64,000 nt of DNA from assembly GCA_000004985.1 (NCBI GenBank), contig GG738869.1; one strand, 5' to 3'. Origin of the DNA: Naegleria gruberi (Eukaryota). The notes beneath the pieces are model-generated. The model worked only from the letters and a program-made list of their open reading frames with translations, did no database searches and had not been told where the DNA came from. The position numbers and the translations under genes are program-made. Of this stretch, positions 22,055 through 44,602 are shown piece by piece. Each line of letters opens with the position of its first letter. Position 1 is the stretch's first letter.

Positions 22055-23647
22055 TTATTTAAATTGATCGATATTTCTAAAGCTATTCTTTTGAGGATTT
22101 TCCACCTTTTTCATCAACTTTAAATATTCAACTCTGAAAGAATCCAACATGTCAGATTTGGATTGGTTTGGGAAATTCAATGAATTCTTGAACGTTTCAT
22201 GGCAGTTGATCAATTTCTTTCCAATTTGAATTTGAGCTTCATCGAAAATATTTGTCAAATCACCTTCAGAGTCACCAATCGATATCTTAACTTGATATCT
22301 TTCAATTTCCTTCTTAATTTCTTCATGTTTCGAATACTTGACATGATTTCTGGCAAGTTCAGTATCCAAGAATTGATTATATATTTCCATTGCTTGTCTA
22401 TCTTCACTATCATTCAACTTGAACGAATTCAGTGACAATAAATCACTGGAAAATGTCAAAATCTCACTCTGTTCATCATCTTCCTGAGAAGGTGAATTAG
22501 CAGTGGAGCAATTGAGTAAACTGCTGTTGTTATTTCTCTCATTGGAAAAGTTTTTCATATCTTCCAGAATTGACTTGATAGTCGAATGTAATGATTTCTT
22601 ATGTTCCTTAAATATCTGAACTTGTTCAAGAAAGTGAAATCTATTCGAAAGTGAATCTCCCTTACAATATTCACCAAATAAGGGTCTCATAAATGGATCT
22701 GCAATTGTCTGAATGACCATAATTGCCTTGGCATGTTCCAATTTCTTAGCCGAATCATGTTCAACCTTAATAGCATGAATAAAAATCAAGACAACCAATG
22801 GAATTGCCACTGATAAACAAACTGCAATAACTGTCAAGTCAGTTGTCGTGGCAGTTTCCATCGCATTTAGCTGAATTACACTCAAATTCTTGATATCACC
22901 CACAAAATTCACATATGTATTTAGAAAAGTGTACATTCCATTGTAATGAGTTGGATTATAAAAGGCAGTCAATGCAGCTGAATAATTCTTCGCCACTACA
23001 TATTCCACAACCTGTTCCTGTAATTTAAAAAGAGGTATTTCATTCGCGTCACGTGTCAAATTTCCCAAACTAGCACTTGGCACCAATGAAAATAATCGAT
23101 TCATGGTCGAAATTAATGATTTCTTAGCAGCATAATATTCCAATGCATAACTTTCATTCCTTCCATACACTGCTATATACTCTGTCATGATCATTGTATT
23201 GTAATACTTGTAGGAATTCCCGTAATGTTGTAAAATTTCGACAAGTGGCCACTTTACAATATCATAGTTATAAATTGTTGTTATGAAAATGGCAAGAAAT
23301 GAAGCAATAATCAAGAACATTCCCAATATAGAGACAATTCTCATGCAATTGAAAGCAAAAGTTCCACAACATGATTTGACATTTACAATGGATTGAGATT
23401 TTGACGTGTTGGAGGTAGTCTTGGTTTTTGCAGAAGTTATGGAATATTTTCGTTTTAGGGTTTGAATTCTGGATTCTTGAGCGTTGATAACGGTAATGGT
23501 GCCATCATCAATTAGGACACTTTTCTTTCGAATAGGTTCATCACCTTGATTAGTTTCGGATAATGGAATGGGTGAAGTAATGGTTACACTGGTTGAGGTT
23601 GGAGAGTTGAGTCTTTCGCGAGGAGTTTCGTTGGGGAGAACTGGCAT
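22055..23647 (-). CDS. receptor-like RGS protein, type A (cytoplasmic N-terminus, TM1, about 170-aa N-glycosylated ectodomain, TM2, C-terminal RGS domain)
   Basis: 530-aa ORF with aaaaaaATG. The RGS core is IADPFMRPLFGEYCKGDSLSNRFHFLEQVQIFKEHKK...AMEIYNQFLD...FDEAQIQIGKKLI. It has two hydrophobic helices and many NxS/T sites between them. It is a paralog of 43295..44602. Confidence 0.7.
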   Translation of the reverse strand: MPVLPNETPRERLNSPTSTSVTITSPIPLSETNQGDEPIRKKSVLIDDGTITVINAQESRIQTLKRKYSITSAKTKTTSNTSKSQSIVNVKSCCGTFAFNCMRIVSILGMFLIIASFLAIFITTIYNYDIVKWPLVEILQHYGNSYKYYNTMIMTEYIAVYGRNESYALEYYAAKKSLISTMNRLFSLVPSASLGNLTRDANEIPLFKLQEQVVEYVVAKNYSAALTAFYNPTHYNGMYTFLNTYVNFVGDIKNLSVIQLNAMETATTTDLTVIAVCLSVAIPLVVLIFIHAIKVEHDSAKKLEHAKAIMVIQTIADPFMRPLFGEYCKGDSLSNRFHFLEQVQIFKEHKKSLHSTIKSILEDMKNFSNERNNNSSLLNCSTANSPSQEDDEQSEILTFSSDLLSLNSFKLNDSEDRQAMEIYNQFLDTELARNHVKYSKHEEIKKEIERYQVKISIGDSEGDLTNIFDEAQIQIGKKLINCHETFKNSLNFPNQSKSDMLDSFRVEYLKLMKKVENPQKNSFRNIDQFK

Positions 23648-23998
23648 TTTTTTAAGAGATTATTAATTAAGGAAGGGGACAGATGTTGAGTTTTTATTGG
23701 AAAGTAGACGAAAGATAAAATCTCTTGGAAGTACATCAATTCTCTTTGTACATTCCCCCAAGTGCATGATATGAATCATTACTTGCCTTTCGTATATTTC
23801 GGTAGAGATAGACGAAACGTAATAGGGATATTAGCTATCTCTCTCGAATATTAAAAAACAAGAGTTGTCATTGAACACTATCTGAGGTTTCCTTTTTCAT
23901 TACTATTGGAGATAAGCGCAATAAAAACAATCTCTAACAATCTTGAACTAAACCTACCGAAACGTCAACATCAATTAATTTTCAATAATTCAAAAAAA
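23648..23998. promoter_or_regulatory. divergent (head-to-head) intergenic region shared by RGS genes A1 and B1
   Basis: A 351-bp spacer lies between two divergently oriented start codons. It contains a direct repeat of TAGACGAAA (about 23708 and about 23806). Confidence 0.4.
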
Positions 23999-25714
23999 AT
24001 GAATTTAAATCAACATGAAATATTGGAAACCAGCATTAAGGAAGAGGTTTTTCAAAACACATCATCTAATAATCTAGTTTCGAATAATGAATCTTGGCAG
24101 GAGCAAGACCTTTCAATTGCACCAAACTTTCAACTTGGTGATACAAACGACATTCTCTCAAATACTCAACTTGATAATATTAGTAACATGGCAGACGATC
24201 TGGAAAGTCTAGAAATTCCTGAACTCGGCGACATGTCAAATGCCAGTCCCATGTTTACAAAAGTTCAACAAGAAGATGACATCAACGAAGAACCACTTGA
24301 AAACCACAATGAATCCCAACCAAACATTCGTAAAAGATACTCCCTAATCTCTCAATGGAACAAAAAGAAGGTTTCCCTTTGTTGCGGAGGAAAAATTGGA
24401 ATTGTCCCATGTTTATCCGTAATGGCAATTCTCCTCAGTATTTTAGCGCTCATTTCCATTGCCCTCCTCGTTGCCCTTCCATTCTATGAAATTAAAAAAA
24501 TACCAATTCTAGATTTAATGACAAGTCGTGCAAAATTATTTGCCTCATATATTGCCATGAGGGATATGTTAAGGTTGGGAGTTGAGAATAAGGGTAATTA
24601 TGATTCGTATTCGACCTATTATTACTATTATTACTATAAGAATAATTTTAATAATAGTTATACAAATTTTACGCATATTATTCCAACAAAGTTTAGTCAT
24701 GAATTTTTGACGAAACCTTTGGCAACTTATCCTATTTTTGTGAACTATTGGGATAAGATGGTAAAGAAGGTGGTTTCGTTTAGGGTGATAAATGGAACGA
24801 CCTATTACTCTCTCAATAAGACCATTCAAGCAGAGGCAAGAAGTCAACTTTACTCAGTTGACTATGCCACGACTTTCAATGATTTTCAAACCTCTTTCTA
24901 TGATTTACAGGACAAGCTATTCGAAATGTGCCATCATGCTGATATGCTGGTCAAGAATAGTGGAATTGCCACTTTATTTTTGGTCTGTTTCTCATTGGCA
25001 GTGATTCTTCCAACCATTCTAATAATTTTCATATTTGCATTGAGGAAAGATCGATCGAATGCAAAGAATCTTCACTCAGCCAATCGAAATATGTTGAAAG
25101 AAACCATGTCCAATCCGTCCATGAGAAGAGATTTTAGAAAGTTTTGTAAAGATTGTAAAATGGAAGGTCAATATTTGATTTTGGAAAAGATTCAATTTTA
25201 TAAGGAATTTTCATTGGAATCGTATGATGCACAAATGAATTTATTTGAATTGACTGGAGAGTATGTGAGGAAACAGAATATTAACATGAAGGAAAAGAAT
25301 TCGAGGTTGGTTTATAAGGTGGCTAAAGAGGCCGAGAAGAAATTAGTTTATTTTGAAAGGATGAAATACGAAACTATATTTGAGATTGTTGAAAATTTTC
25401 ATGAGGTGAATCAATGTTCGCACTTTTCAGCACTCTTTCAAGAAGTGAGAACAGTGTTGGATTTGTACAATAACAAGAATGATATCTTTGAGGATACAGA
25501 TCTACTGCCTTCGAAACTATTCGATAATTTAGAAAAGGAATTGAGTACAGCTCTTGCTAGAACTCATTTGCAATTCAAATCAACGAGTGGACTAAATGCT
25601 AGCAAAGCAATGTCATGCAATTCACCATCATCTCCAATTATTGTTGAGAAAACGAAGCCACTATTGGATCAATCAGTAATCTCTACTACAGAAGATCTTT
25701 CCATTCAAGTGTAA
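23999..25714 (+). CDS. receptor-like RGS protein, type B (two TM helices flanking an ectodomain, C-terminal RGS domain)
   Basis: The ORF starts at 23906. ATG 23999 has the aaaaaaaATG context. The RGS core is MSNPSMRRDFRKFCKDCKMEGQYLILEKIQFYKEF...LFDNLEKEL. It is a paralog of 41631..43181. Confidence 0.65.
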   Translation: MNLNQHEILETSIKEEVFQNTSSNNLVSNNESWQEQDLSIAPNFQLGDTNDILSNTQLDNISNMADDLESLEIPELGDMSNASPMFTKVQQEDDINEEPLENHNESQPNIRKRYSLISQWNKKKVSLCCGGKIGIVPCLSVMAILLSILALISIALLVALPFYEIKKIPILDLMTSRAKLFASYIAMRDMLRLGVENKGNYDSYSTYYYYYYYKNNFNNSYTNFTHIIPTKFSHEFLTKPLATYPIFVNYWDKMVKKVVSFRVINGTTYYSLNKTIQAEARSQLYSVDYATTFNDFQTSFYDLQDKLFEMCHHADMLVKNSGIATLFLVCFSLAVILPTILIIFIFALRKDRSNAKNLHSANRNMLKETMSNPSMRRDFRKFCKDCKMEGQYLILEKIQFYKEFSLESYDAQMNLFELTGEYVRKQNINMKEKNSRLVYKVAKEAEKKLVYFERMKYETIFEIVENFHEVNQCSHFSALFQEVRTVLDLYNNKNDIFEDTDLLPSKLFDNLEKELSTALARTHLQFKSTSGLNASKAMSCNSPSSPIIVEKTKPLLDQSVISTTEDLSIQV

Positions 25715-25779
25715 TAAACTATTAAGTTGTCAGAGTTAGTTTTGTGGTTTATTTACAATAGAGAAATCCAAAGAGAGAA

Positions 25780-26667
25780 TTAAAGATTTCTTTGTCTATC
25801 AACTTGTCTGCATTGTAATTGCCAAACAGCTGGTTCAGCAGCACTACCATGAACGAATACAGGGCTCTTAGTTTCAACCAAAGAAACACCCCAACTAGTA
25901 ATTCTGCAATAACATTCACCCTTCAAAACTGGATAACCCTTACGAATACGATCAGCAATAACATAACCATCAATCATAACGAGAATATTGTAAATGAGAA
26001 CGAGAGGAATTAATGGAATACCAATAAAGAAGGCACACAATACGGCAAGAATGGTAGTCAAAACAACTGAAACAACGAGATAGATAGCACCCTTTGATTG
26101 TTGTCCAATGACAAAATGTCCCAAACCAGGGAAGACCAAATTACAGAGCAAAACAAGTGCTGGTTCAACTCCTTGAACCTTGACATAGGATTCATCAGTA
26201 ACTTGAACAGTAGTATTGGTTACAATAGGAGTAGTAGTTGGTTGAATGGTAGGTGGAAGAGTAGATGGAACATAGGTAGGTTGTTGTTGTGGAATATGAT
26301 TTACATTTGGGAGAGGAGGCAATTGAATTTGTGGTTGTCCAGATTGTTGTTGTTGTTGTTGCAATAACTGTTGTTGTTGTAAATATTGTTGATACATTTG
26401 TTGTTGTTGAAGAAACTGGGCATATTGACTTTGTGGAATGTAGGCAATTTGTTGTTGTCCATCTTGTCCCATAACCGGAACAGCATAGAAGGCTTGTTGT
26501 TGTTGTTGACCAGTAGTAGCAACATTTGGTTGTTGTTGTTGGTGAACAATTGGTTCTTGCTTTTGAGTAAAAGTTGGTTGTTGTTGTTGTGCTTCTTCTT
26601 GTTGAATTTGTTCACTGGTTGGAACGTATTCATCAGCTTCATCTTGAAGATTTTGATAACCGCTCAT
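25780..26667 (-). CDS. TM2-domain protein with long Q-rich N-terminal region
   Basis: The TM2-like motif is NLVFPGLGHFVIGQQSKGAIYL with flanking TM helices. The poly-Q is encoded by (CAA)n. The ORF starts at 26850, but ATG 26667 (MSGYQNLQDEADEY) has the oligo(A) context. Confidence 0.5.
   Translation of the reverse strand: MSGYQNLQDEADEYVPTSEQIQQEEAQQQQPTFTQKQEPIVHQQQQPNVATTGQQQQQAFYAVPVMGQDGQQQIAYIPQSQYAQFLQQQQMYQQYLQQQQLLQQQQQQSGQPQIQLPPLPNVNHIPQQQPTYVPSTLPPTIQPTTTPIVTNTTVQVTDESYVKVQGVEPALVLLCNLVFPGLGHFVIGQQSKGAIYLVVSVVLTTILAVLCAFFIGIPLIPLVLIYNILVMIDGYVIADRIRKGYPVLKGECYCRITSWGVSLVETKSPVFVHGSAAEPAVWQLQCRQVDRQRNL
26280..26600. repeat. imperfect (TTG/CAA)n trinucleotide tract encoding poly-Gln on the minus strand
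   Basis: There are runs of ttgttgttgttg. This explains the spurious plus-strand poly-Val/Leu ORFs at 26289..26694. Confidence 0.7.
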
Positions 26668-27024
26668 TTTTATTATTGTATGGAAGAGTTTTGAAATCCT
26701 TTGCGGGAAATGTTTTGTTTGTGCTTTTTTTTTTGATAGGGAAATTGATGAGAAAAGTAAAATTAGCTTCAAAAAGAGTTCTAATTGGAAAAATTTTAAA
26801 ATGGAAAGGAGTTTGGTTTGATTGATGTTGAATTCGAAGTTTCTTTTCACAGAGTATTTTCTAAGGTATTAAGTACTAAGAAGTGAATGCAATGAACCTA
26901 ATCATGTGATTCAAAAAACAATCTAAGATTTGTAAAAGTAACAACTTTCTCAAACAAATGTAAAAAATCTCATACCCTTCCAACAACCTTCCAATCACTT
27001 TCTTCAATTCTTCCACAAAAAAAA

Positions 27025-29130
27025 ATGGTTCTACTTCCCTCATCGTCATCAGACAGCAATAATCAAGCAGAGAACACCACGACAGCCTGCTACGGAAAAA
27101 TCATTCAACTCTCTCATCAACTCATCACACGAGTGGAAGAGTGGAGAGATGAGTTGTTGCAACGTGTTGAAGGGCAAATGAAAATTCAGAAACAATCCAT
27201 GCACGATTCACATTATAAACCATTCGATCATGAGGAGTATGAGAGAGAAATGGCTTCAAAGGTGGTGATTCCTGGATTGGAAGATGTTTTTCATGATTTA
27301 ATGCAGAGAGTGGATGTGGCTCTTGATTTGCAACCTTGCTTTCAGGATGTTAATAATCAGGTATTGAATGATGTGGAGTGTTCTGCTCCAATGATGGAAT
27401 TTAATGAAGAAGTAATTGGAATGAACAATAATGAAATGTTGTTGACAAGTTCTGCAGAGCTTGTGTATTGTCCAGAAAATTCAAGTGTTGAAGAGTTTCT
27501 TTCAGGTTTCAGTAAATACAAAACTAAAGAAAGAAATGAAGAATTATTGAAACAAGCACTGAGTACCAAGCTATTGATTGGATCTCAAATGAGTGAGCTG
27601 GAAAACAAATACATTATCATGAGTCCATTCATGATGAATATTACCAGTTTGGAAGTATGTAATACAGGCATTGGAGTAGATGTTTCCATTTTCCTTTCGA
27701 AAAGCAAACACGTTTCCAATTTGACAAGTTTGAGATTGAGAAAATGTGGATTGGAGAGTAAGCATGCCAGAGTTCTCTCTGAAAACCCATATCTTTGCAA
27801 TTTAAAGGTTTTGGATTTGGGAGATAATGTTCATATACTGTCATCTGGTTGCAGATATATTTCAGAATCTAATAACATGCGTCAGTTGACTAGCTTGGAT
27901 ATTTCTAACAATAATATTGATAGAGATATTGAATATCTTTGTAATAGTCAAAAAATGCAGAATTTGACCAAGTTAGATCTCGAACGAAATATTGTTGGCG
28001 AAACTGCAGCCAAACACATTTCTATGAGTATTTTCTTCTATAATATGATGGAACTCAACTTGAAAAACACAGGACTCAGTGAAAAGGCATTCAAAACGAT
28101 AGTAGAGTCACCAAACATGACAAACCTTACAACTCTCGATGTCAGAAACAATTCTCTCGGATCTATTTGCTGTAAACACTTAGCAGAAAGCATGTACATG
28201 TCCAAATTGACTTCTCTGTATCTATCTCAGAATCTTATAGACTCAGATGGAATTAAATACATTGCCAATAGTCAATACATGGCAAACTTGAGAAGAATTC
28301 TCTTGCTAGAAAATAGAATTGGAGCTGAGGGTGTGAAATATCTATCTCAGAGTCCATATATGGCTAATTTGACAATGATAGGATTGGAAATGAATGGAAT
28401 TGGAAGTGATGGATGCTCTTATTTATCAAATAGTTTGTGTATTACCAATCTGACAACTATTCAGCTGTTTAAAAATAAGATTCGTCCAGAGGGTATGAAA
28501 TATTTATCAGAAAGTCCATTACTCTCTAATTGCACAACTCTTGGATTAAGAGAGAATAATATTGGTGTAGAGGGAGCTGGATATCTTTCTACGAGCCCTT
28601 ATCTTTCAAAAGTCACAACACTAGTTCTGTATGAAAATCAACTGGGAGTAGAGGGAGTTCGATTGATTGTTTCCTCTCAAAATTTCTCAAATTTGACCTC
28701 CCTTAGTTTGGAAAGTAATAATATTGGTGCTGAAGGAGCTAAATTAGTGGCAGAGAGTCCATTTATGTCTCACTTGACAACACTCTTGTTATTTGATAAC
28801 AAAATTGGACCAGAAGGTGTTAAATATTTATCTCAAAGTGCTCATCTATCAAATTTAACACATTTAGAAATGGATGGTAATGCAATCAAGAATGAGGGAC
28901 CTAAATTTATTGCCCAAAGTTCTGTATTTTCAAATTTGAGAGAGTTGAGTATTCAGAATAACTCGATTAATGTGGAAGGGCTCAAGTATATTCTTGAGAG
29001 CAAATTAATCACTCAATTACACACCTTGGATATCAGAAGTAACTCTTTTGCATCTATACTTCCATTCTCAGAAGCATCAAAACTCCTACAACAAGCCAAA
29101 CAAAAGTATTGTATCAAATTAAACAACTAA
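27025..29130 (+). CDS. leucine-rich repeat protein, ribonuclease-inhibitor (RNI)/NLR-type 28-residue LRRs
   Basis: 701-aa ORF with aaaaaaaaATG. It has at least 15 tandem repeats of the form LTxLxLxxNxIGxEGaKyLsxS. Confidence 0.7.
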   Translation: MVLLPSSSSDSNNQAENTTTACYGKIIQLSHQLITRVEEWRDELLQRVEGQMKIQKQSMHDSHYKPFDHEEYEREMASKVVIPGLEDVFHDLMQRVDVALDLQPCFQDVNNQVLNDVECSAPMMEFNEEVIGMNNNEMLLTSSAELVYCPENSSVEEFLSGFSKYKTKERNEELLKQALSTKLLIGSQMSELENKYIIMSPFMMNITSLEVCNTGIGVDVSIFLSKSKHVSNLTSLRLRKCGLESKHARVLSENPYLCNLKVLDLGDNVHILSSGCRYISESNNMRQLTSLDISNNNIDRDIEYLCNSQKMQNLTKLDLERNIVGETAAKHISMSIFFYNMMELNLKNTGLSEKAFKTIVESPNMTNLTTLDVRNNSLGSICCKHLAESMYMSKLTSLYLSQNLIDSDGIKYIANSQYMANLRRILLLENRIGAEGVKYLSQSPYMANLTMIGLEMNGIGSDGCSYLSNSLCITNLTTIQLFKNKIRPEGMKYLSESPLLSNCTTLGLRENNIGVEGAGYLSTSPYLSKVTTLVLYENQLGVEGVRLIVSSQNFSNLTSLSLESNNIGAEGAKLVAESPFMSHLTTLLLFDNKIGPEGVKYLSQSAHLSNLTHLEMDGNAIKNEGPKFIAQSSVFSNLRELSIQNNSINVEGLKYILESKLITQLHTLDIRSNSFASILPFSEASKLLQQAKQKYCIKLNN

Positions 29131-29176
29131 AAAAGACAATTGTATTGCAAAAAAAAGAAGAAAGTAAAATATGAAT

Positions 29177-29249
29177 CGCCCACCGTGGGGGTCGAACCCA
29201 CGACCACAAGGTTAAGAGCCTTGCGCTCTACCGACTGAGCTAGACGGGC
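29177..29249 (-). tRNA. tRNA-Lys: tRNA-Lys (anticodon CUU)
   Basis: The reverse complement is GCCCGTCTAGCTCAGTCGGTAGAGCGCAAGGCTCTTAACCTTGTGGTCGTGGGTTCGACCCCCACGGTGGGCG. It has a cloverleaf with G-U pairs in the acceptor stem and the anticodon loop CTCTTAA. Confidence 0.9.
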
Positions 29250-29640
29250 TACACATCCCCACAAAAACTGTCAATAAAAATTATTAAGACTTATTAATTA
29301 TCAAATTATGAATTGAAATCAGTTTGAAAATAAACAAATTAATCACAACCAAAATATCCATTAATAAAACTAATTTATTGCACTTTCAAAATTGAACGCA
29401 ATATCTCACTTTCAGCAATCATACTGCGACAAAAAGGTTACCGCGAAGGAGCAACATATGGTTTGGATGGTTCGATTGCTGCGTTATGGGCCAGCCCCAC
29501 CAGTTGTTCTTTTTTAATCCAATTTGTTCCACAATTGTAAGGAATAAGGTTTTAAAATTGTTGCAAAGAAGCAAACACTGGCCATCAATTTGAACCAAGA
29601 AAAAATATTTAAAAAAAATTTTAAAAAAAATCGTAAAAAA

Positions 29641-31062
29641 ATGGCGCAAAACAAAATCACGTTTCTGGGTTCTGGGTAATCTCCGTATTCTCGATTTTCA
29701 ATCATCACAACTAAAAAATTAATTAACATGAAAACAAGCCTTTTCAAGACATTATTGGGTTGTTACCAGTCTAATACAATTTTCGAGTTTGATGAATTCA
29801 TGTATCGGCCAGTTGAGTGGCTGATGATGACAAATAACAGAATAGTGGTGGCTTGTCAAGATAGAATGTTGAATTTATTTGTTTTCAAGGTCATCAAGTT
29901 TGCGGATGAGCAAGAGAAAGTAGATGGTGAAACCAAAACTGAACTAATGGATATTATTAATGGATTAGATTTTTTCAATATTCTTACAGCAGGAATTCAT
30001 CAATTAGAAAACGAGGTTGTTGCAATTACTACCTATCGTGGATTGGATTTGGGTAGGCTGAGAGCAGAAAAAATAGGGAAAGGGGAAAAGATAGCTGTCT
30101 CGTTAGTTCTAAAGATTTTATTGCAGGTTACGGCAGCCTTAAAAAGGCTTCATGAAAATGATTTGATACACAGAGATGTAAAATTGGGGAATATTTTCAT
30201 GGATAATAATAGTAATTCAGATTTGGTTGTTTTGGGCGACTATGGAGTTGCAACAAAAATTAATCATATTCAAGACTTTGAACTTTATTCTAGTGTAGGC
30301 TCTGTGGGGTATTTGCCTCCTGAGCTAGAGGTAGAAAATCATGCAAGTTTTAAATGGGATGTGTGGAGTCTTGCAATCACAATATTGAAGTTTATGTTTG
30401 GGGATGAGCAGTGTGATTTTACAAAACATTATCATTTGTTGGAATTTAATAATAACAATTCAGAAAAAAAGTTCATAACTACAGTCCATAGAGTTGAAAA
30501 ACTATTTGAGCAAAGCACCCATTGCTTAAAAGACTCACCATTATGGAAAGATGTTAAGAATGTTCTTCTTAGAATGCTATTGAGAGAACATGAACGACCA
30601 AATGTGAAACAATTATTCAATGAATTTTTTGTGGGAAAGGGGTTAGTGATTGATTATGTATTCCATAAACTCAAAACTATCTCATCCAAATCTAACGAAG
30701 AATTACTCTTAAACTTGAGAAAGGTTTTAAGTTTTAAAGAAAGTGAAGCGTTCGAAAAGGGATTGAGTTTTACCCAATTCTGGTTCATTTTAGATGTTTT
30801 GATTAAAAATCCCAAATTTGGAGGCACCTATGTGCACAAACCTTTCGAGCCCCAATTCACTACTGTCACTCCTATATTTTACAAACAAATGGATGGAGAA
30901 TGGAAATGGTCACCTGATGGCGATTATTGGATGTCATGCAGTACAGAAACAGTGATAGGAGGATATTATGATGGTCAAATGCCAGTTATGGAAAATATTC
31001 GCCTTCTTAAATGGTTGCACAATGATTATGGAGTGGCTATAGTTGATTTAGGGTTGGAATGA
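29641..31062 (+). CDS. protein kinase-like protein with atypical motifs (HRDVKLGN, DYG, PPE); probable short 5' exon
   Basis: Exon 1 is 29641..29675 (aaaaaaaATGGCGCAAAACAAAATCACGTTTCTGGGTTCTGG, donor gtaatc). Exon 2 is 29739..31062. The splice yields ...FLGSGGLFKTLLG, which resembles a Gly-rich loop. The catalytic loop HRDVKLGN is intact. There is no clear VAIK Lys. Confidence 0.5.
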
Positions 31063-35335: not shown

Positions 35336-36562
35336 ATGCAACATTTACAGTTCGTTCCTTCTCCTGAGGAGATTGGCTTTATCAAATCCATTCCTTCGAT
35401 AACATTTTGCAAAATGCACGGATTGGGAAATGATTATATTTACATTAATTGTTGTAATTTATTACATTCATCAGAAGCTAATGATTTCCGAATCTATCTA
35501 AATCATCAACATAATCTAATTGAATATTGTATTCAAAAGTTGTGTCATCGAACATTTGGTATTGGAGCTGATGGTGTAATTTTCATCACGAATCCAACAC
35601 CAGAATTATTGGAGAATGAAACAAATCATCATCAAATAATTCATTGTCAAATGGAAATGTACAATTCCGATGGATCGAGTGGAGAAATGTGTGGAAATGG
35701 ATTGAGATGTGTTGCTCAGTTTGCCTGTGATCGTTTGGTGGAGAGTGGTAAAATTAAAAAACAAACACTTGAGGGAGGACAACTTGGATATAGAATCAAT
35801 GTACAAAGTAATAGAGGAAAGAGATTGTATCAATGTATTTGTTATGAGGATAGGTCTACATTTTCCAAATCTTCACCTCTGATGGTTGAGATTGAGATGG
35901 GAAATTTACAAACAAAAAGTGTTAATTTCTCATTTGAAAATAATTCAAATTCTATTGAATATGTGGAACAGGAGGAGAATTCAATTAGGAAAATCATTTT
36001 CAAACAATATTTGGATTGTGAAATTCCTCTGTATTGTCTTTTGGTACCTAATCCACATGCCATTTGTTGGGTTAATGAAATTTCTTCACAGAATGAGATT
36101 GATAACACAATGAAAGCAGTCGATTCATTCCCACTTCATACAATTGGTCCAATCATTGAAAATTTGAAACAATTATTTCCAAATAGGACCAATGTAGAAT
36201 TCATTGAAACCATTTCAGCTCAGCATATTGAAACAAATGATTCACCTCTCATCAAATCATTAAAATCCAATTGCATTCTCTCTGCCCGTCAACGTACTTG
36301 GGAGAGAGGTAGTGGAGAAACCAATGCATGTGGGACTGGAGCTTTTGCTGTATCTCAAGTTCTCTACTTGAGAAATGCCATCACCAATTCAATTGGCAAT
36401 ATTCCAAATACTGCCACAGTCAGAATATCCCTCAATGGAGGTGATTTATGGTTCAGATATCACAAATCAAATCCAACTTCACTCGATCATATTCAAGTCA
36501 ACATGATTGGTTCTGTCAATTATTCTCACACAGGCTCCTTCAAATTATCAGATTATCAATAA
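35336..36562 (+). CDS. dapF: diaminopimelate epimerase (DapF family) with eukaryote-style insertions
   Basis: The N-terminal motif is FCKMHGLGNDYIYI (consensus F.KMHG.GNDF). The first catalytic Cys is in SDGSSGEMCGNGLRC. The second active-site motif is ERGSGETNACGTGAFA. It is 408 aa against about 275 aa for bacterial DapF. A single ORF with aaaaATG. Confidence 0.7.
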   Translation: MQHLQFVPSPEEIGFIKSIPSITFCKMHGLGNDYIYINCCNLLHSSEANDFRIYLNHQHNLIEYCIQKLCHRTFGIGADGVIFITNPTPELLENETNHHQIIHCQMEMYNSDGSSGEMCGNGLRCVAQFACDRLVESGKIKKQTLEGGQLGYRINVQSNRGKRLYQCICYEDRSTFSKSSPLMVEIEMGNLQTKSVNFSFENNSNSIEYVEQEENSIRKIIFKQYLDCEIPLYCLLVPNPHAICWVNEISSQNEIDNTMKAVDSFPLHTIGPIIENLKQLFPNRTNVEFIETISAQHIETNDSPLIKSLKSNCILSARQRTWERGSGETNACGTGAFAVSQVLYLRNAITNSIGNIPNTATVRISLNGGDLWFRYHKSNPTSLDHIQVNMIGSVNYSHTGSFKLSDYQ

Positions 36563-36880
36563 TAAACAACCTTTAAGCTCCTTCCATACAATTCCAAAAA
36601 CACAAAAGAACATTAATGAAATAGCCTGAAACTTTCCATGTTTAATATTTTTCATTTATTTTCTCTTCAATCTTTTGCCAATTCTTTCGAAGTCTCGGAA
36701 AAAGGTGAAGCTTTAGAAAAAAATATCATCACCAAGTTTGCGGAAGCCTTTTTTCTCTCTTGTTGTGTTAGTACCACCTCTTCTCGACTCGTCGTGTTGC
36801 TATTTTTCTCTGATACGCTATAGAATCTTCTTCTTTGGACACCAATTTAAAAACAACTTGGAATATTTGGATAATAGGAA

Positions 36881-39340: not shown

Positions 39341-39631
39341 ATTATTAACTTCCTTCCCTCCTAAACAATCACACACTCCCCAAATTTTTCTTTCCCTTTT
39401 CTTCTCATTTCAATAAATCTAAAGAGTTTCATTTAATGTTTTCATTTTGATTAAGGATTCTTGAAAAGATAACACGAACTCAATTAAGCATTTTACCAAT
39501 TAAATTGAATCAGTTTAAAATCATATCTCTTGAATTTCTTCAAGCCAACACTTGATTCCGCCAACAACATCAAGTAAAACATTAAAAAAAATAATTTCAA
39601 AAATAAATTTTTAAAAAAAATACAACAAAAA

Positions 39632-40318
39632 ATGAGCGCTGTTGTCGAATATCTTAAAGCCCCAGTGCACGACCTCTTTGCCTGGGCTCGTATTAGTTCT
39701 ATGTGGCCTGTTACTTTTGGTTTGGCTTGTTGTGCTGTTGAAATGATGCACGTCGCCGCTGCTAGATATGACTTGGAACGTTACGGTATCTTCTTTAGAC
39801 CAACACCTCGTCAATCCGATGCCATGATTATTGCTGGTACCTTGACAAACAAAATGGCTCCTGCTCTTCGTAAAGTTTGGGATCAAATGGCTGAACCACG
39901 TTACTCTGTTTCTATGGGTTCTTGTGCCAATGGTGGTGGTTATTATCACTTTTCTTATCACGTTGTTAGAGGTGCCGATCAAATTATACCTGTGGACGTT
40001 TACGTTCCTGGATGGTAAGTAGTTTTTGTTGTTGTTATTAACTTGTTTTCACAGCCCTCCAACCGCTGTATGTATTATTGTTTTATTATTAGCAAAATAT
40101 TAATATTGTTTTTTGGATAATTTGGATATGTTAAATATAATGGAAATATATAGGAAGCTTTATTATATGGTGTTTATATGCTTCAAAAGAAGATTAAGAG
40201 AAATCCATACAGAAAGGAAATTATGGAACAAGATTTTAACCAACCTGGTAAATTATATAGAGCTGAAAAGGAATTGAGCGTTTCTGATAATTTGAAACTT
40301 TTGAAACAACAAGAATAA
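39632..40318 (+). CDS. NDUFS7: NADH:ubiquinone oxidoreductase 20-kDa subunit (NDUFS7/PSST/NuoB), 3 exons including a 13-nt micro-exon
   Basis: Exon 1 is 39632..40014 ([37 protein letters not shown]). Intron gtaagt..acag. Exon 2 is 40055..40067 (ccctccaaccgct, giving C-PPTA). Intron gtatgt..tatag. Exon 3 is 40154..40318 (EALLYG...QKKIKR). Splicing restores the invariant GCPP motif. Confidence 0.8.
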
Positions 40319-40411
40319 TTTATATATAAATAGTAACGAAGCGAATGAAAAAACCTCAGTGAGTTTCGACAATAAAGAAAGGGTCACTGTTTAATCATTT
40401 TCTTTAGTATT

Positions 40412-41452
40412 TTACAAAATGTTAGCTCTGTGTAAATTACACAACAATTGATTATAGTTGAAAAGAGGTCCATATTGCATATCATGCCAATAATTGACTG
40501 CAACCACAACACCTTCCTCATTGTGGTCCTGAGCCACTTGATGAAGCCATAAAGATGGAAGATATAAAGCATCTCCAGGTCCAATCTCCACTTTGAATGG
40601 AGTGGCATGCTTATATCTTGGGTAAACTTGAATGATTTCCTCTCTAGTTTGTTTATCTGGATCAACATCAATCCAAGGGACTTGCGTATCTTCATCTACA
40701 ATCTTCCATTCATTATCTTCAAAATGATAGTGAGCTTCATTATAATTCTTATAAGGCACATTTACAACATCTGTTGGAGGATAAAGTGTAAAGATTTTCT
40801 TTCCAGCCAATACACAATAAATATTCTCATATGGATCCTTATGTAAACTAGAAGTAGATTGACCATCTCCAATCCACAAATTAACAGCATCTGGTAAATT
40901 ATTAAAAGCTCTCACAGCAAATCCCAATTGTTCTGGAACATCTTGCATGAGTTCTTGAAATTCCTTTGTTAAACTTGAATTTTGATGTTGAGCATAGAAG
41001 ATAGTATTCCATGAATTCATTCCATTAAATTCCTCTTCCTCCTTATCTGGTAAATTATTAAATCTCCTCTTATTAGTCATAAATTGCATAAATTGATTAA
41101 ATTTCATTTTCACTTCCATAGGTTTAATAAATTTTCCTTCATGCACAGCATCAGCCTTTCCATTTGGTGTACAAGCCACAGAAATTTCCTTATCGGAAAG
41201 AACTTGTTTCAAATATTCAACATTCCACTTTTCAGAGGCTGGCCATCCTTCCAAAGCATTCCTAAATATCACTGGTTTATTAGCACTAATATAATGATGA
41301 ACAAAATTTAAAACATCATCCTCATCTTCATAAACTGGAAATCCGTAAAGTTCATCAACTTGTCCTTCCTCTCCGTAGGTTTCCTTGGTTTGTTCCGAGA
41401 GGAGGTCTAATTGTTCGTGGAGCAGGGTTTTCAGTGTGTCGTTTGCGCTCAT
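40412..41452 (-). CDS. JmjC-domain (cupin) 2OG/Fe(II) oxygenase, JMJD7-like
   Basis: 346 aa with aaaaaaaaaATG. The iron-binding motif is SSLHKDPYENIYCVLAGKKIFTLYPP (HxD) followed by ...LWLHQV. Confidence 0.6.
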   Translation of the reverse strand: MSANDTLKTLLHEQLDLLSEQTKETYGEEGQVDELYGFPVYEDEDDVLNFVHHYISANKPVIFRNALEGWPASEKWNVEYLKQVLSDKEISVACTPNGKADAVHEGKFIKPMEVKMKFNQFMQFMTNKRRFNNLPDKEEEEFNGMNSWNTIFYAQHQNSSLTKEFQELMQDVPEQLGFAVRAFNNLPDAVNLWIGDGQSTSSLHKDPYENIYCVLAGKKIFTLYPPTDVVNVPYKNYNEAHYHFEDNEWKIVDEDTQVPWIDVDPDKQTREEIIQVYPRYKHATPFKVEIGPGDALYLPSLWLHQVAQDHNEEGVVVAVNYWHDMQYGPLFNYNQLLCNLHRANIL

Positions 41453-41630
41453 TTTTTTTTAATTTGTTTTTTAATTTTTTATCTAAATATGGAAGATTTA
41501 AAAATTGCTTTATTTGGATGGTTGAGTGAAAAATGTTAAAGAATTCATAGAATTTTTGAGAATATTTTAAAGAAATAGTTGCAAAAATTCATCTTCTTTA
41601 TTGAAAATTTTAAAATATTTGTAATTTTAA

Positions 41631-43181
41631 TTAAATGAAAGGAAGATCACTTGTTGGAGATTGAGGAGAATTTGGAGAAGTAGTGTTCATATTCAAAGCA
41701 AGTGTTGATTTGAATTGAAAATGAGTTAGAGAAAGAATATCCGATATTTCCTTTTCGAGATTATCCAAAATTTTTGAATGGAGAATGTCCACAGTTTCGT
41801 ATGAGCCTTGTCTATTGTTATAGAGATCGATTTGGTGGATAATCCATTCCATACTACCAAGATAAACAGATTCTGATTGAATGGAATCATGAATTTCAAA
41901 AATGATTTCGTATTTGATTCGTTCTAGATGGGAAAGTTTCTTTTCAAGTTCATTCGAAACTTGCTGAATATAAATGTCTGCTCCTTTAGCCAAAGACTTT
42001 TCCGCTACAAACTCCTTTGTAATTTCATATAATTTGAGCTGACAATCTATTGAATCTTTACAAAATTCTTTAAAATATTGAATTCTTTCCAAAATTGAAA
42101 ATGGAATTCCAACCTTTGCCTTTTTACAAAATGTTTTAAATTCATCTCGCATTCCAATATCAGCCATCGTATCCTTCAATATATTAGTACTCTCAATCCT
42201 AACTTTCTTCTCATTTCGTATCAACTTTCGTCCCAACATTAAATAAACTAATATTCCAACAGGAATAACAATCACACAAGCCAGACACGACAAGACCAAC
42301 ACTGAAATTCCACTCGCTATGGTAAACTCATCAATTCTATTGCACAACAAGTAAATATCCTCCAATATCTCAAAAAACTTTGTTTCGAATAGTTCCATTT
42401 CATATTTAAATGTTCCATTATAATATTTGACATTGTAAACATTAAATTGTTGATAAAATTCATCCAATTTCGTATAATTTGAAGTATAATTACTCAGCTT
42501 ACAAAACAACCCAATCATTTCTGTCCAATTCTGATAAAGTGGCAGAAACACTTCCTCACCATTCGAATTTCCCATAAACGAATGTTCATAACTGTCAGGT
42601 ATTAAGGAAATCATTTTAAAAACCGATTGATTATAATCAAGCAGTGTATAATTAAGCATATCACAAAAATCTGAATAATTAATCGTTTCCAAACTATTAT
42701 TAAGAGCACTCAATTCTAACATGTCTCGTAAATAGACGAAAGAAGATTTAACTGAATATCGACTAATGAGTAGTTCCTTAATGGGAACAAATTCGGCTAT
42801 TCGTGATGGGACAATGATGGCGAGGGCAATGATGAGTAGAAACAAAATATTGATGAACATGGCCATGGTGGCAAGTAATGGAATTAATCCGAAACGTTTC
42901 GAACAACAATTGATTTGTTTTTTTGATAGTGAACGAGCCAAATCATCAACATGATTGGTTTCGTCCCGAATTTCCTCTATACCTGCTGGTAATTGATCTT
43001 CTATCCTTTCATCCTCAAATAGTATCCTCGGTTGACTTTCGAATACATTTTCATTCTCCACAAAAACACTTCCTTCATCATTTTCATAATTATTTGGTGA
43101 TTGAATTGAAGAATAACTTATTGCCCTCTTCAATTCAAAAGTAGACGGCTTGCTATATGATGGTGGATCATTTAAAAGCAT
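41631..43181 (-). CDS. receptor-like RGS protein, type B (paralog of 23999..25714)
   Basis: The ORF extends to 43301 via non-ATG codons. The first ATG with aaaaATG context is 43181 (MLLNDPPSYSK...). The RGS core is MADIGMRDEFKTFCKKAKVGIPFSILERIQYFKEF...ILDNLEKEI. It has two TM helices. Confidence 0.65.
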   Translation of the reverse strand: MLLNDPPSYSKPSTFELKRAISYSSIQSPNNYENDEGSVFVENENVFESQPRILFEDERIEDQLPAGIEEIRDETNHVDDLARSLSKKQINCCSKRFGLIPLLATMAMFINILFLLIIALAIIVPSRIAEFVPIKELLISRYSVKSSFVYLRDMLELSALNNSLETINYSDFCDMLNYTLLDYNQSVFKMISLIPDSYEHSFMGNSNGEEVFLPLYQNWTEMIGLFCKLSNYTSNYTKLDEFYQQFNVYNVKYYNGTFKYEMELFETKFFEILEDIYLLCNRIDEFTIASGISVLVLSCLACVIVIPVGILVYLMLGRKLIRNEKKVRIESTNILKDTMADIGMRDEFKTFCKKAKVGIPFSILERIQYFKEFCKDSIDCQLKLYEITKEFVAEKSLAKGADIYIQQVSNELEKKLSHLERIKYEIIFEIHDSIQSESVYLGSMEWIIHQIDLYNNRQGSYETVDILHSKILDNLEKEISDILSLTHFQFKSTLALNMNTTSPNSPQSPTSDLPFI

Positions 43182-43294
43182 TTTTATGATTCGTAAATAA
43201 GTTATTCGAAAGGAAAGAAGTAGAAATAGAGATAAAAACAACATAAAAAAAAGGCATTTCAGAGTACTTACGAGTAGTAACTTGAAACAAGAAA
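43182..43294. promoter_or_regulatory. short divergent intergenic region shared by RGS genes B2 and A2
   Basis: About 113 bp lie between divergent ATGs. It contains AAGTAGAAATAGAGATAAAAA, similar to a word in the 23648..23998 spacer. Confidence 0.35.
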
Positions 43295-44602
43295 ATGCCA
43301 ATCAATGAAATACGTAAAAACGTCAAGGCCAATCAAGAGACTACTTTCACAACCAAGTCTTCATCTCTTGATTCGAATATGCCAACTAGGCGAAAGATTG
43401 TAAAGTATTTGAGACTAATCTTGTTGATAGGATTCATTATCAACTTTTTATCTTTCATTTCAATTGCTATTATTTCAATATTATCTTTTCAAAGTTCTAA
43501 TTTTTCATTATCAACTGCCATATACAAATATGGAAATGCATATTTGGGTTATGATGAAATGGAATTGGCAGAATTTTTAGTATTACTGACAAGAAAGGAG
43601 AAATTCATTCAAAGATATTATCATTCAAAGAATGAATTGAATAGTTCACTTTCGTATGCTTTTCAAATAATTTCGAATGAAAATTCTTCTTGGATTCCAA
43701 CTCACGAATGGTTCCAAATTGAAAATCACGTAATGGAACTAGTCAAGAGTGGAAACTATTCTCAAGCTTACTCAGTTTCAACTTCTCCAGAACACAAACT
43801 AGCAGATCTTCGATTTATCCAATTTTTAGATTCAGTTCTCGCTCAATTATTCCAAATCAGTGAAACAAAAGAAGCAGAATATATGAAATACACAACTATT
43901 GATCTGGTTGTGGTGATTCTCTGTTTAGGAATTGCCATTCCAATTGTTTTATTAATTTTCATTGGAGTTATTAAATTGGATCGAGATTCAAAGAAGAGAT
44001 TGGAGAAGGCAAGGGCAGTTTCGGTTATTCATTCGATTTCTGATCCGTTTCTGAGACCCAAGTTTAGAAAATGTGTTGAGAATGATGAGTTGGTGTGTTT
44101 TGAATTCTTGGAGAATGTTCAATTGTTTAAGGAGAAGAAGAGATCTATTCATTCGACTATTCAGTCGATTCTAGACGAAATGAAAAAAGAAATGATACCT
44201 AATGATGAAGAGGATGATGCTAGTTCATTGAATGGAATTAGCCCACTAACCCTTTCTCCTGATTTATTCTTACAAATCAAGTCAGAAGATGATCAAATTA
44301 AGGCAATTGACATTTACAATCGTTTTCTCAATCCTAAAGAAAATCAGAAACACATCAAATATAAGAATCATGAAAAGATTTTGGAGGAAATTAATCATCA
44401 GAGTAATCAAGACCTGTTGTCCACTGTATTCGATCAGGTACAAATTGAAATTGCTAAAAAGCTCATCAAATCTCATGAATTATTCTCCAAATCTCAATCT
44501 TTCTCCACTCAAGACATTGAAGACCAATTGCTTTCCTATAGATTTGAATATCTTTCAATATTCAAACCTGAAAAACGAAACAGTCTATTCACATCAAAGT
44601 AA
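43295..44602 (+). CDS. receptor-like RGS protein, type A (paralog of 22055..23647)
   Basis: 435 aa. The RGS core is ISDPFLRPKFRKCVENDELVCFEFLENVQLFKEKK...AIDIYNRFLN...FDQVQIEIAKKLI. It has two TM helices flanking an ectodomain with NxS/T sites. Confidence 0.7.
   Translation: MPINEIRKNVKANQETTFTTKSSSLDSNMPTRRKIVKYLRLILLIGFIINFLSFISIAIISILSFQSSNFSLSTAIYKYGNAYLGYDEMELAEFLVLLTRKEKFIQRYYHSKNELNSSLSYAFQIISNENSSWIPTHEWFQIENHVMELVKSGNYSQAYSVSTSPEHKLADLRFIQFLDSVLAQLFQISETKEAEYMKYTTIDLVVVILCLGIAIPIVLLIFIGVIKLDRDSKKRLEKARAVSVIHSISDPFLRPKFRKCVENDELVCFEFLENVQLFKEKKRSIHSTIQSILDEMKKEMIPNDEEDDASSLNGISPLTLSPDLFLQIKSEDDQIKAIDIYNRFLNPKENQKHIKYKNHEKILEEINHQSNQDLLSTVFDQVQIEIAKKLIKSHELFSKSQSFSTQDIEDQLLSYRFEYLSIFKPEKRNSLFTSK

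What the first reader, a model, noticed from the sequence alone, without database searches (positions are those of the whole stretch)
22055..44602. Two head-to-head pairs of receptor-like RGS genes that are inverted duplicates of each other
The genes are laid out A1(-)/B1(+) at 22.0-25.7 kb and B2(-)/A2(+) at 41.6-44.6 kb. A1 and A2 are clear paralogs, with about 50-55% identity across the RGS core and C-terminus. B1 and B2 are also paralogs. Each pair is divergently transcribed from a short shared spacer of 351 bp or about 113 bp. The second pair is the reverse complement of the first, so an ancestral bidirectional A/B unit was duplicated by inversion about 16 kb away. Bidirectional pairing conserved after duplication suggests co-regulation of an A/B heteromeric signalling module.
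Basis: seen in the sequence. Interest (0 to 1): 0.6.

Follow-up and report, generated by a model that had tools for sequence, protein, structure and literature searches.

The report
Co-duplicating paired RGS-like receptor genes
In the amoeba Naegleria gruberi, two kinds (A and B) of two-pass membrane proteins with a degenerate RGS-fold tail are encoded as back-to-back gene pairs, and these pairs were copied as units many times across the genus, which suggests, without proving, that A and B work together as one receptor.

Summary
The window is Naegleria gruberi NEG-M. A1(-)/B1(+) and B2(-)/A2(+) sit at the stated coordinates, head-to-head, with spacers of 351 and 113 bp, in mutually inverted orientation. 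A1/A2 match at E=2e-68 and B1/B2 at E=5e-70. Identity is 31-36% overall and reaches 55% only around TM2 and the first half of the RGS-like domain.

The four genes belong to a family of about 80 clusters; every member traced is heterolobosean or from a metagenome. The architecture is an N-terminal tail, TM1, a helical ectodomain of 145-180 aa, TM2, and an RGS-fold domain with an insert. A and B are distinct clades.

A/B adjacency recurs. It is head-to-head in four further contigs and tail-to-tail in N. fowleri and N. lovaniensis. The A and B trees mirror each other (Mantel r=0.84, p~1e-4).

The two window pairs are not each other's closest relatives, and the duplication is probably older than the gruberi/fowleri split. 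A simple local inverted duplication is therefore not established.

Best reading: an ancient, co-inherited A/B module, possibly heteromeric, with non-canonical RGS-homology output. It is a new variant of known TM-RGS receptors.

The parts
22055..23647 (-). A1 gene (530 aa; NAEGRDRAFT_58095 / D2VFX8), A-clade two-pass RGS-like membrane protein
   Evidence: ORF; exact match to the deposited protein; A-clade placement; 12 synonymous against 6 non-synonymous codon differences versus a 98%-identical strain
23282..23338 (-). A1 TM1 (residues 104-122), preceded by a juxtamembrane CC motif
   Evidence: Kyte-Doolittle 19-residue window score 2.87
22835..23281 (-). A1 ectodomain (residues 123-271), predicted helical bundle
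   Evidence: Lies between two strong TM segments; the homologous region of A2 is modelled as a helical bundle with pLDDT 80-89
22778..22834 (-). A1 TM2 (residues 272-290) with the family-conserved Pro
   Evidence: P283 is nearly invariant
22058..22771 (-). A1 cytosolic RGS-homology domain with insert and C-terminal tail (residues 293-530)
   Evidence: Pfam RGS 22.7 bits, below the 23.9 cut-off; hhalign 99.4% to RGS-positive relatives; G-alpha contact residues not conserved
23648..23998 (.). Shared 351-bp spacer between the A1 and B1 start codons
   Evidence: 94% identical with indels in a close strain, compared with about 98% over the whole aligned contig, which is mostly coding; no motif shared with other pairs
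23999..25714 (+). B1 gene (571 aa; NAEGRDRAFT_67783 / D2VFX9), B-clade partner
   Evidence: B core clade bootstrap 95
24419..25033 (+). B1 TM1 (residues 141-159), ectodomain (160-326) and TM2 (327-345)
25040..25618 (+). B1 cytosolic RGS-fold domain (residues 348-540) with a long helical insert
41631..43181 (-). B2 gene (516 aa; NAEGRDRAFT_67794 / D2VFZ0): TM1 42810-42866, ectodomain 42303-42809, TM2 42246-42302, RGS-like domain 41709-42233
43182..43294 (.). Shared 113-bp spacer between the B2 and A2 start codons
43295..44602 (+). A2 gene (435 aa; NAEGRDRAFT_49220 / D2VFZ1): TM1 43418-43474, ectodomain 43475-43906, TM2 43907-43963, RGS-like domain 43970-44599

Best explanation
The four genes are two copies of an ancient two-gene module found so far only in Heterolobosea.

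Each gene encodes a type of receptor-like protein. It has a cytosolic low-complexity N-tail, TM1, a helical-bundle ectodomain of about 145-180 aa, TM2, and a cytosolic RGS-fold domain that carries a helical insert. The family splits into a 'generic' clade and two derived clades, A and B. The generic clade keeps the canonical G-alpha contact residues and is probably made of receptor-GAPs. Clades A and B have lost those residues.

An A gene and a B gene lie side by side on opposite strands, usually head-to-head across a spacer of 0.1-0.4 kb. The pair has been duplicated and inherited as a unit many times, so the A and B trees mirror each other. The two pairs in this window are two old copies of that module that happen to lie 16 kb apart in opposite orientation.

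Shown: the architecture, the clades, recurrent adjacency, co-diversification, the RGS fold of B1 (in a model) and the loss of contact residues.

Inferred, and the mechanism I think most likely: A and B are co-expressed and assemble into an A/B hetero-oligomer, most simply a heterodimer. This would resemble dimeric bacterial four-helix-bundle sensors. The fast-evolving ectodomains would sense a ligand. The degenerate RGS-homology domains would act as non-catalytic or non-canonical G-alpha-binding or scaffolding outputs within Naegleria's large G-protein network, which runs on self-activating G-alpha subunits.
For: Identity of organism and genes.

Paralogy.

Family: 84 representatives at 50% clustering with E<=1e-3, of which 78 have E<=1e-10. 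Of 20 traced, 14 carry an organism name (N. gruberi, N. fowleri, N. lovaniensis or Willaertia magna) and 6 are unnamed metagenome or read-assembly proteins.

Loss of contact residues: the positions matching RGS4 E83, S85, E87, N88, N128, D163 and R167 are conserved in 28-42 of 48 generic members (36-42 for all but S85, which is 28). They are conserved in only 0-3 of 13 A and 0-2 of 14 B members. The core residues F79, L(W92), H165 and F168 are kept.

Topology: two strong TM segments in each protein. The A2 ectodomain is modelled as a helical bundle with pLDDT 80-89, and its best Foldseek matches are bacterial chemoreceptor and histidine-kinase 4HB sensor domains.

Pairing elsewhere: head-to-head A/B in L005, L007 (the N. 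gruberi NAEGRDRAFT_80561 pair in a near-identical strain), L008 and L009. Tail-to-tail in N. fowleri FDP41_010370/010371 and in syntenic N. lovaniensis. Two more N. gruberi pairs are inferred from consecutive accessions and locus tags.

Co-diversification: the NJ trees are congruent, with matching 100%-supported subclades in A and B, and Mantel r=0.84-0.85 with p~1e-4.

Purifying selection on A1.

Biological context: Naegleria has self-activating G-alpha subunits, 28 7TM-RGS proteins and 79 other RGS proteins (PMC9283941).
Against: No expression, interaction or biochemical data were available, so co-expression and heteromerisation are untested.

Mirror trees follow from co-duplication alone and do not prove physical interaction.

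The tail-to-tail arrangement in N. fowleri and N. lovaniensis shows that a shared bidirectional promoter is not obligatory. No conserved motif was found in six head-to-head spacers.

The ectodomain match to bacterial 4HB sensors is not statistically significant (Foldseek E 0.014-1). It has no sequence support: no 4HB Pfam hit.

Foldseek did not recover RGS for the B1 model. The cytosolic domain of the A2 model was low-confidence. Neither PDB profile search gave a significant RGS hit.

Partners of several A or B members (P0009, P0011, P0014, P0059 and others) could not be inspected. Only one generic member was checked for absence of a partner.
Confidence: 0.55

Rival explanations
1. Neutral linkage. 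A and B arose once by an inverted tandem duplication. Later segmental duplications simply copied both genes, and adjacency persists because nothing has broken it. A and B act independently as homomeric receptors.
For: A and B are paralogs with the same architecture, so birth as neighbours is expected. Mirror trees follow from co-duplication alone. No shared promoter motif was found. Orientation is not fixed.
Against: Adjacency survived at every one of the 8 loci inspected. This held despite A/B divergence to about 20% identity, several rounds of duplication, at least one local rearrangement (head-to-head to tail-to-tail) and dispersal to different scaffolds. No locus with both neighbours visible lacked a partner. 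Numbers of A and B representatives are equal, 14 and 14.
Confidence: 0.25
2. One reading: pair 2 is a direct local inverted duplicate of pair 1, made about 16 kb away.
For: The orientations are mutually inverted and the two pairs are close on one scaffold. A1, A2 and P0011 group together in 53% of bootstraps.
Against: A1 is closer to P0011 (bootstrap 94) and B1 is closer to P0009 on another scaffold (bootstrap 76). A1+A2 are exclusive sisters in 4% of replicates and B1+B2 in 9%. B2 tends to group with the lineage that has N. fowleri orthologs (58%). The p-distances A1-A2 (0.67) and B1-B2 (0.69) exceed the gruberi/fowleri ortholog distances (0.55 and 0.57). There is no spacer or flank similarity. 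The eight large ORFs that lie between the pairs are unrelated housekeeping or signalling genes.
Confidence: 0.15
3. Canonical receptor-GAPs. A and B are ordinary ligand-regulated RGS proteins, like AtRGS1 or the Naegleria 7TM-RGS proteins. Each would accelerate GTP hydrolysis on G-alpha, and the pairing would serve only co-regulation.
For: B1 has an RGS fold. The family is homologous to PF00615-positive proteins. Naegleria 7TM-RGS domains are active GAPs on self-activating G-alpha subunits (PMC9283941). A G-alpha gene lies next to a B-clade gene in L006.
Against: The residues equivalent to RGS4 E87, N88, N128, D163 and R167 are lost in both clades while being conserved in the generic clade. 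None of 10 core A/B members reaches Pfam RGS at E<=0.1. The best structural neighbours include non-GAP RGS-homology domains, namely SNX25, SNX13 and axin.
Confidence: 0.15

Closest known systems
Seven-transmembrane RGS receptors (Arabidopsis AtRGS1; the Naegleria fowleri 7TM-RGS family, Bosch et al. 2022, PMC9283941)
   Same: Both are membrane receptor-like proteins with a C-terminal cytosolic RGS-fold domain. Both occur in the same organism group, which has self-activating G-alpha subunits and a very large RGS repertoire.
   Different: These proteins have two TM helices rather than seven, and a large helical ectodomain between them. The RGS-like domain carries a long insert. In clades A and B it lacks the canonical G-alpha contact residues. 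The genes come as A/B pairs.
Bacterial Tar/Tsr-type chemoreceptors and sensor histidine kinases with a periplasmic four-helix-bundle (4HB) sensor
   Same: The TM1 - helical bundle - TM2 - cytosolic output topology is the same. The best structural neighbours of the A2 ectodomain model are PcaY, MCP2201, Tsr, Tar and histidine-kinase sensor domains. Those receptors work as dimers with ligand sites at the dimer interface, which makes a heterodimer model natural.
   Different: There is no significant sequence or structure score (Foldseek E>=0.014, no Pfam 4HB hit). Four-helix bundles are a generic fold. The output here is an RGS-homology domain, not HAMP plus a kinase-control module. This is a resemblance only, and membership is not claimed.
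Non-GAP RGS-homology (RH) domains: axin, SNX13/SNX25, GRKs, RGS-RhoGEFs
   Different: The overall architecture is unrelated, and no orthology is implied.
Divergently transcribed paralogous partner-gene pairs that are duplicated as units, such as basidiomycete HD1/HD2 mating-type homeodomain pairs and plant head-to-head paired NLRs like RGA4/RGA5 and RRS1/RPS4 (from my own knowledge)
   Same: In both cases two related genes lie head-to-head across a short spacer, the pair multiplies as a unit, and partner phylogenies are congruent. In those systems the products form heteromers.
   Different: The protein families and biology are entirely different. For the Naegleria pairs, heteromerisation and co-expression are untested.

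Membership tests
RGS domain superfamily (Pfam PF00615) | Sequence match to the Pfam RGS model above its gathering score | tested here: not met
   A1 scores 22.7 bits against a cut-off of 23.9. B1, B2 and A2 have no hit at E<=1. Ten close A/B relatives have no hit at E<=0.1.
RGS domain superfamily (Pfam PF00615) | Demonstrable homology to bona fide RGS-domain proteins | tested here: met
   48 of 82 family members hit PF00615, best E=7.8e-12. The A and B C-terminal profiles align end to end with those members at hhalign 99.4% and 99.9%.
RGS domain superfamily (Pfam PF00615) | All-helical RGS fold | tested here: met
Catalytically competent (GAP) RGS proteins | Conserved G-alpha switch-contact residues (RGS4 S85, E87, N88, N128, D163, R167) | tested here: not met
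   These residues are conserved in 28-42 of 48 generic members but in only 0-3 of 13 A and 0-2 of 14 B members. None of the four window proteins has N88, N128 or D163 at the aligned positions.
Catalytically competent (GAP) RGS proteins | Acceleration of G-alpha GTP hydrolysis | not testable with these tools
   This needs a biochemical assay.
7TM-RGS receptors (AtRGS1-like) | Seven transmembrane helices N-terminal to the RGS domain | tested here: not met
   Each protein has two strong hydrophobic segments. The AF2 model shows two membrane-length helices flanking a bundle.
Bacterial-type 4HB sensor receptors | TM1 - four-helix bundle - TM2 topology with helices continuous into the membrane | tested here: met
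   In the A2 model, helix 31-99 (TM1 plus alpha1), helices 102-126, 137-162 and 165-249 (alpha4 plus TM2) form the bundle, with pLDDT 80-89 in that region.
Bacterial-type 4HB sensor receptors | Significant sequence or structure similarity to 4HB_MCP/TarH domains | tested here: inconclusive
   The top 20 Foldseek hits are all such domains, but with E 0.014-0.5 and TM-score (target-normalised) 0.4-0.6. There is no Pfam hit.
Conserved divergent (bidirectional) partner-gene pair | Head-to-head orientation with a short shared spacer, recurring in paralogs and in other species | tested here: met
   The window has two such pairs (351 and 113 bp). L005, L007, L008 and L009 have spacers of 290, 429, 342 and 250 bp. 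The exception is the tail-to-tail arrangement in N. fowleri and N. lovaniensis.
Conserved divergent (bidirectional) partner-gene pair | Co-expression and physical interaction of the two products | not testable with these tools
   No expression data were available and no multimer prediction tool was offered. The literature search for these loci found nothing.
Local inverted segmental duplication | The two copies are each other's closest relatives and similarity extends beyond the genes | tested here: not met
   Bootstrap support is 4% for A1+A2 and 9% for B1+B2. Closer relatives lie elsewhere. There is no flank or spacer similarity.

The most novel reading that the evidence does not exclude
Clades A and B encode the two subunits of an obligate heterodimeric eukaryotic surface receptor. 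It would be built like a bacterial chemoreceptor, with a 4HB sensor formed across two two-pass chains. Its output would be a pair of pseudo-RGS domains that capture or scaffold self-activated G-alpha-GTP rather than hydrolysing it. This would be a receptor class not described in eukaryotes, diversified by duplication of whole gene pairs.
Probability: 0.25. Interest if true: 0.75.

Novelty: new variant of a known kind. Interest (0 to 1): 0.5.

Why it matters
Naegleria, which includes the lethal N. fowleri, runs an unusually large G-protein network in which self-activating G-alpha subunits are controlled mainly by receptor-like RGS proteins. Only the 7TM-RGS class has been studied.

This work defines a second class with two TM helices. 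Within it are two co-inherited subfamilies that have lost the GAP contact residues and are kept as neighbouring genes across species.

If A and B form a heteromeric sensor, this would be a new way of coupling an extracellular signal to G-proteins. It would also be a clean eukaryotic example of partner genes that duplicate and co-evolve as a unit, comparable to paired NLRs or HD1/HD2 loci.

If the linkage is neutral, the result is still a useful annotation of about 80 previously 'predicted protein' clusters.

Tried and rejected
(1) The search for homologous proteins was run three times, with A1 alone, with the 4-sequence alignment and with the 82-sequence alignment. Each run returned only a 99% copy of A1 from an ENA metagenome. 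It did not even return the window's own paralogs, although those are in the collection. It was therefore uninformative for this low-complexity family, and the exhaustive HMMER search was needed.

(2) PDB sequence and profile searches gave no significant RGS hit. RGS7 and RGS10 appeared only at E~0.1.

(4) In the full-length A2 model the cytosolic domain had pLDDT below 50, so it could not be used to assess the RGS fold.

(5) N. gruberi contigs are not on record in the look-up of encoding contigs. The other N. gruberi pairs (P0022/P0020 and P0050/P0023) are therefore inferred only from consecutive UniProt accessions and locus tags. Their strands are inferred from the plus-then-minus numbering of GenBank protein ids, a numbering rule that I verified on the window genes.

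(6) The search for related loci on metagenome contigs matched 410 pattern hits, but none was confirmed.

(7) A k-mer search for a shared promoter motif in six head-to-head spacers found nothing beyond A/T runs.

(8) Support for (A+B) as one clade against the generic clade is weak (28% bootstrap). A single origin of the pair is therefore inferred from the shared loss of contact residues, not from the tree.

(9) Literature searches for these loci, for 2TM or four-helix-bundle RGS receptors in Naegleria, and for Naegleria bidirectional promoters found nothing relevant. Anantharaman et al. 2011 (Gene 475:63), which catalogues RGS architectures, is not held, so prior description there cannot be excluded.


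Full report
**1. What the window is**

The four proteins are identical to deposited Naegleria gruberi NEG-M models on a 747,259-bp scaffold:
- A1 = NAEGRDRAFT_58095 / D2VFX8
- B1 = NAEGRDRAFT_67783 / D2VFX9
- B2 = NAEGRDRAFT_67794 / D2VFZ0
- A2 = NAEGRDRAFT_49220 / D2VFZ1

The window has about 34% GC and is gene-dense with long uninterrupted ORFs. Its content is ordinary eukaryotic: Rab GDI, PRMT5, a kinase, LRR, TPR and JmjC/cupin proteins, F-box proteins and two tRNAs.

**2. Checking the observation**

The coordinates, strands, start codons and spacers (351 and 113 bp) are as stated.
- A1/A2: BLASTP E=2e-68, 36% identity over 379 aa.
- B1/B2: E=5e-70, 33% identity over 443 aa.
- A vs B: E=3e-13.

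tblastn finds only these four family members in the 64 kb. At DNA and tblastx level the two regions match only inside the coding regions. All matches are colinear in inverted orientation, and nothing matches in the flanks or spacers.

| Region | A1/A2 | B1/B2 |
|---|---|---|
| Overall | 35% | 31% |
| TM2 + first half of RGS-like domain | 55% | 35% |
| Whole C-terminal region | 44% | 41% |
| Ectodomain | 25% | 27% |

The ectodomain therefore evolves fastest.

A strain about 98% identical (ENA contig L001) carries the same head-to-head A1/B1. A1 shows 12 synonymous against 6 non-synonymous codon differences. The spacer is 94% identical, with indels.

**3. Architecture**

Each protein has two strong hydrophobic segments that flank 144-181 residues. 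A Cys-Cys motif precedes TM1 in three of the four proteins. TM2 has a nearly invariant Pro.

The AF2 model of A2 has an overall pLDDT of 58.6. It places TM1 continuous with the first ecto-helix and the last ecto-helix continuous with TM2. The bundle itself has pLDDT 80-89.

The best Foldseek neighbours of this model are bacterial periplasmic four-helix-bundle sensor domains: PcaY, MCP2201, Tsr, Tar and histidine-kinase sensors. The E-values (0.014-1) are not significant, and no Pfam 4HB model matches. I treat this as a resemblance, not as membership.

**4. Is the tail an RGS domain?**

Direct sequence evidence is weak:
- A1 scores 22.7 bits on PF00615 against a gathering score of 23.9. The other three proteins have no hit.
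- Ten close A/B relatives have no hit at E<=0.1.
- PDB profile searches are not significant.

Indirect evidence is strong:
- An exhaustive HMMER search with a profile of the four proteins finds 84 representatives at 50% clustering, 78 of them at E<=1e-10.
- 48 of 82 members hit PF00615, best E=7.8e-12.
- The A-clade and B-clade C-terminal profiles align over about 180-190 columns with the RGS-positive 'generic' clade, at hhalign 99.4% (E=1.7e-21) and 99.9% (E=3e-31).

The tail is therefore an RGS-homology domain with a long helical insert between its two halves.

**5. The A and B domains are not canonical**

I mapped the RGS4 G-alpha contact positions through the generic-clade profile. The alignment register is shown.

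| Clade | Members | Contact positions (E83, S85, E87, N88, N128, D163, R167) |
|---|---|---|
| Generic | 48 | conserved in 28-42 |
| A | 13 | conserved in 0-3 |
| B | 14 | conserved in 0-2 |

The core positions F79, L at W92, H165 and F168 are retained in all clades. None of the four window proteins has N88, N128 or D163 at the aligned positions.

This pattern matches non-GAP RGS-homology domains such as axin, the SNX proteins and the GRKs. That some RGS domains have lost GAP activity and act as scaffolds is noted in PMC3971589.

**6. The pairing is general**

Sources for 20 representatives are N. gruberi, N. fowleri, N. lovaniensis, Willaertia magna and unlabelled metagenome contigs.

BLAST scores and an NJ tree (80 sequences, 460 columns) separate an A clade and a B clade from a large generic clade:
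- B core: bootstrap 95.
- A core: bootstrap 63, with subclades at 98 and 79.
- A and B are separated in 98% of replicates.

Head-to-head A(-)/B(+) neighbours inspected directly:

| Locus | Genes | Spacer |
|---|---|---|
| L005 | A = P0071, B = P0012 | 290 bp |
| L007 | A 99.5% identical to N. gruberi NAEGRDRAFT_80561; partial B-clade gene upstream | 429 bp |
| L008 | A = P0027; B-clade gene upstream | 342 bp |
| L009 | B = P0013; A-clade gene upstream | 250 bp |

Tail-to-tail neighbours:
- N. fowleri FDP41_010371 (B, +) and FDP41_010370 (A, -).
- The syntenic N. lovaniensis locus. Both loci are flanked by NMD3, TsaD and TruB genes.

Two more N. gruberi pairs are inferred from consecutive accessions and locus tags: P0050/P0023 = D2VY70/D2VY71 = NAEGRDRAFT_73993/73994, and P0022/P0020 = D2VLF5/D2VLF7. 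GenBank protein ids for this genome number plus-strand genes first and minus-strand genes second. I verified that rule on nine window genes. It suggests that both inferred pairs are divergent as well. This is an inference.

No pair was on the same strand. One generic, Pfam-positive member (Willaertia P0016) has no family neighbour within the 10 kb upstream and 1.5 kb downstream that could be seen.

**7. Co-diversification**

The internal structure of the A and B clades is congruent:
- The N. fowleri, N. lovaniensis, N. gruberi-LF and L009 group has 100% bootstrap in both trees.
- The L007 + L008 group has 100% in both trees.

The A-A and B-B distance matrices over 8 directly observed pairs correlate at r=0.85 (permutation p=1e-4). 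With 10 pairs, r=0.84 (p=5e-5). The pair has therefore been duplicated and inherited as a unit.

**8. History of the two window pairs**

- A1 groups with P0011, a metagenome protein 45% identical to it (bootstrap 94).
- B1 groups with N. gruberi P0009 on a different scaffold (38% identity, bootstrap 76).
- A1+A2 are exclusive sisters in 4% of replicates and B1+B2 in 9%.
- B2 joins the lineage that has N. fowleri orthologs in 58% of replicates.

The p-distances A1-A2 (0.67) and B1-B2 (0.69) exceed the N. gruberi/N. fowleri ortholog distances in the sister lineage (0.55 and 0.57). If rates are comparable, the split between pair 1 and pair 2 predates the gruberi/fowleri divergence.

'Duplicated by inversion 16 kb away' is therefore not established. 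The present arrangement could equally result from later rearrangement.

The change from head-to-head to tail-to-tail in the N. fowleri/N. lovaniensis lineage is most simply explained by tandem duplication of a pair followed by reciprocal loss. That is an inference.

**9. Mechanism**

Shown: a family of two-pass proteins with an RGS-fold tail, found so far only in Heterolobosea and in unlabelled metagenome contigs; two clades with degenerate G-alpha contact surfaces; conserved opposite-strand adjacency; and co-diversification.

Inferred: co-expression from the shared spacer, and assembly into an A/B hetero-oligomer whose ectodomains form a composite sensor, by analogy with dimeric 4HB receptors. 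The RGS-homology tails would bind or scaffold G-alpha or other partners rather than act as classical GAPs. The setting would be the self-activating G-alpha system of Naegleria described in PMC9283941.

The main rival is neutral persistence of a pair that was born by inverted tandem duplication. The tail-to-tail species and the absence of any shared spacer motif argue against an obligatory bidirectional promoter. They do not argue against functional coupling.

**10. Novelty**

Already known:
- TM-fused RGS proteins exist in most eukaryotic lineages (PMC3971589).
- Naegleria has a very large RGS repertoire, with 28 7TM-RGS and 79 other RGS proteins in N. fowleri (PMC9283941).

I found no description of the following:
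- the 2TM helical-ectodomain class;
- its A/B subfamilies;
- their conserved pairing;
- their degenerate contact residues.

Anantharaman et al. 2011 could not be read, so prior description there cannot be excluded.

I rate this a new variant of a known kind, of moderate and specialist interest.

Noticed in passing
L006:282-3488 (Logan SRR15442450 contig): A B-clade family member (P0059, + strand) lies convergent with a G-alpha subunit gene (PF00503, 371 aa, - strand), 435 bp apart. This is a possible functional neighbour for an RGS-like receptor. The upstream side is cut by the contig end, so any A partner is not visible.
   Followed up: partly
outside the window: N. gruberi NAEGRDRAFT_76378 (P0002) on a 47,655-bp scaffold: A 167-aa gene model is 98% identical to the C-terminal third of A1 (163 of 167 residues). 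It is probably an allelic or haplotype scaffold, or a partial recent duplicate, in the NEG-M assembly.
   Followed up: partly
L004:12298-14408 (N. lovaniensis) and L005:1343-2862: The N. lovaniensis B gene is split into two gene calls (288 and 170 aa). The L005 A gene is also split (412 and 95 aa, with a frame change near the N-terminus). Each could reflect an intron, an assembly frameshift or a pseudogene.
   Followed up: no
window 21879-21951 (+) and 29177-29249 (-): tRNA-Ala(AGC) lies 104 bp beyond the 3' end of A1. tRNA-Lys(CTT) lies between the LRR gene and the kinase gene.
   Followed up: no
window 35336-36562 (+): A 408-aa ORF contains two diaminopimelate-epimerase domains (PF01678). 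This is an unusual enzyme family for a eukaryote and possibly an old bacterial acquisition.
   Followed up: no
window 2318-3457 (-): An ORF combines an N-terminal F-box with a Ras/Roc-type small GTPase domain.
   Followed up: no
window 25780-26850 (-): A glutamine-rich low-complexity protein with C-terminal hydrophobic segments and no Pfam match lies immediately 3' of B1.
   Followed up: no
tool behaviour: The word-indexed protein search never returned A2, B1 or B2, even when they were part of the query alignment, although each is a cluster representative in the same collection. Negative results from that tool for low-complexity protist proteins should not be trusted.
   Followed up: yes
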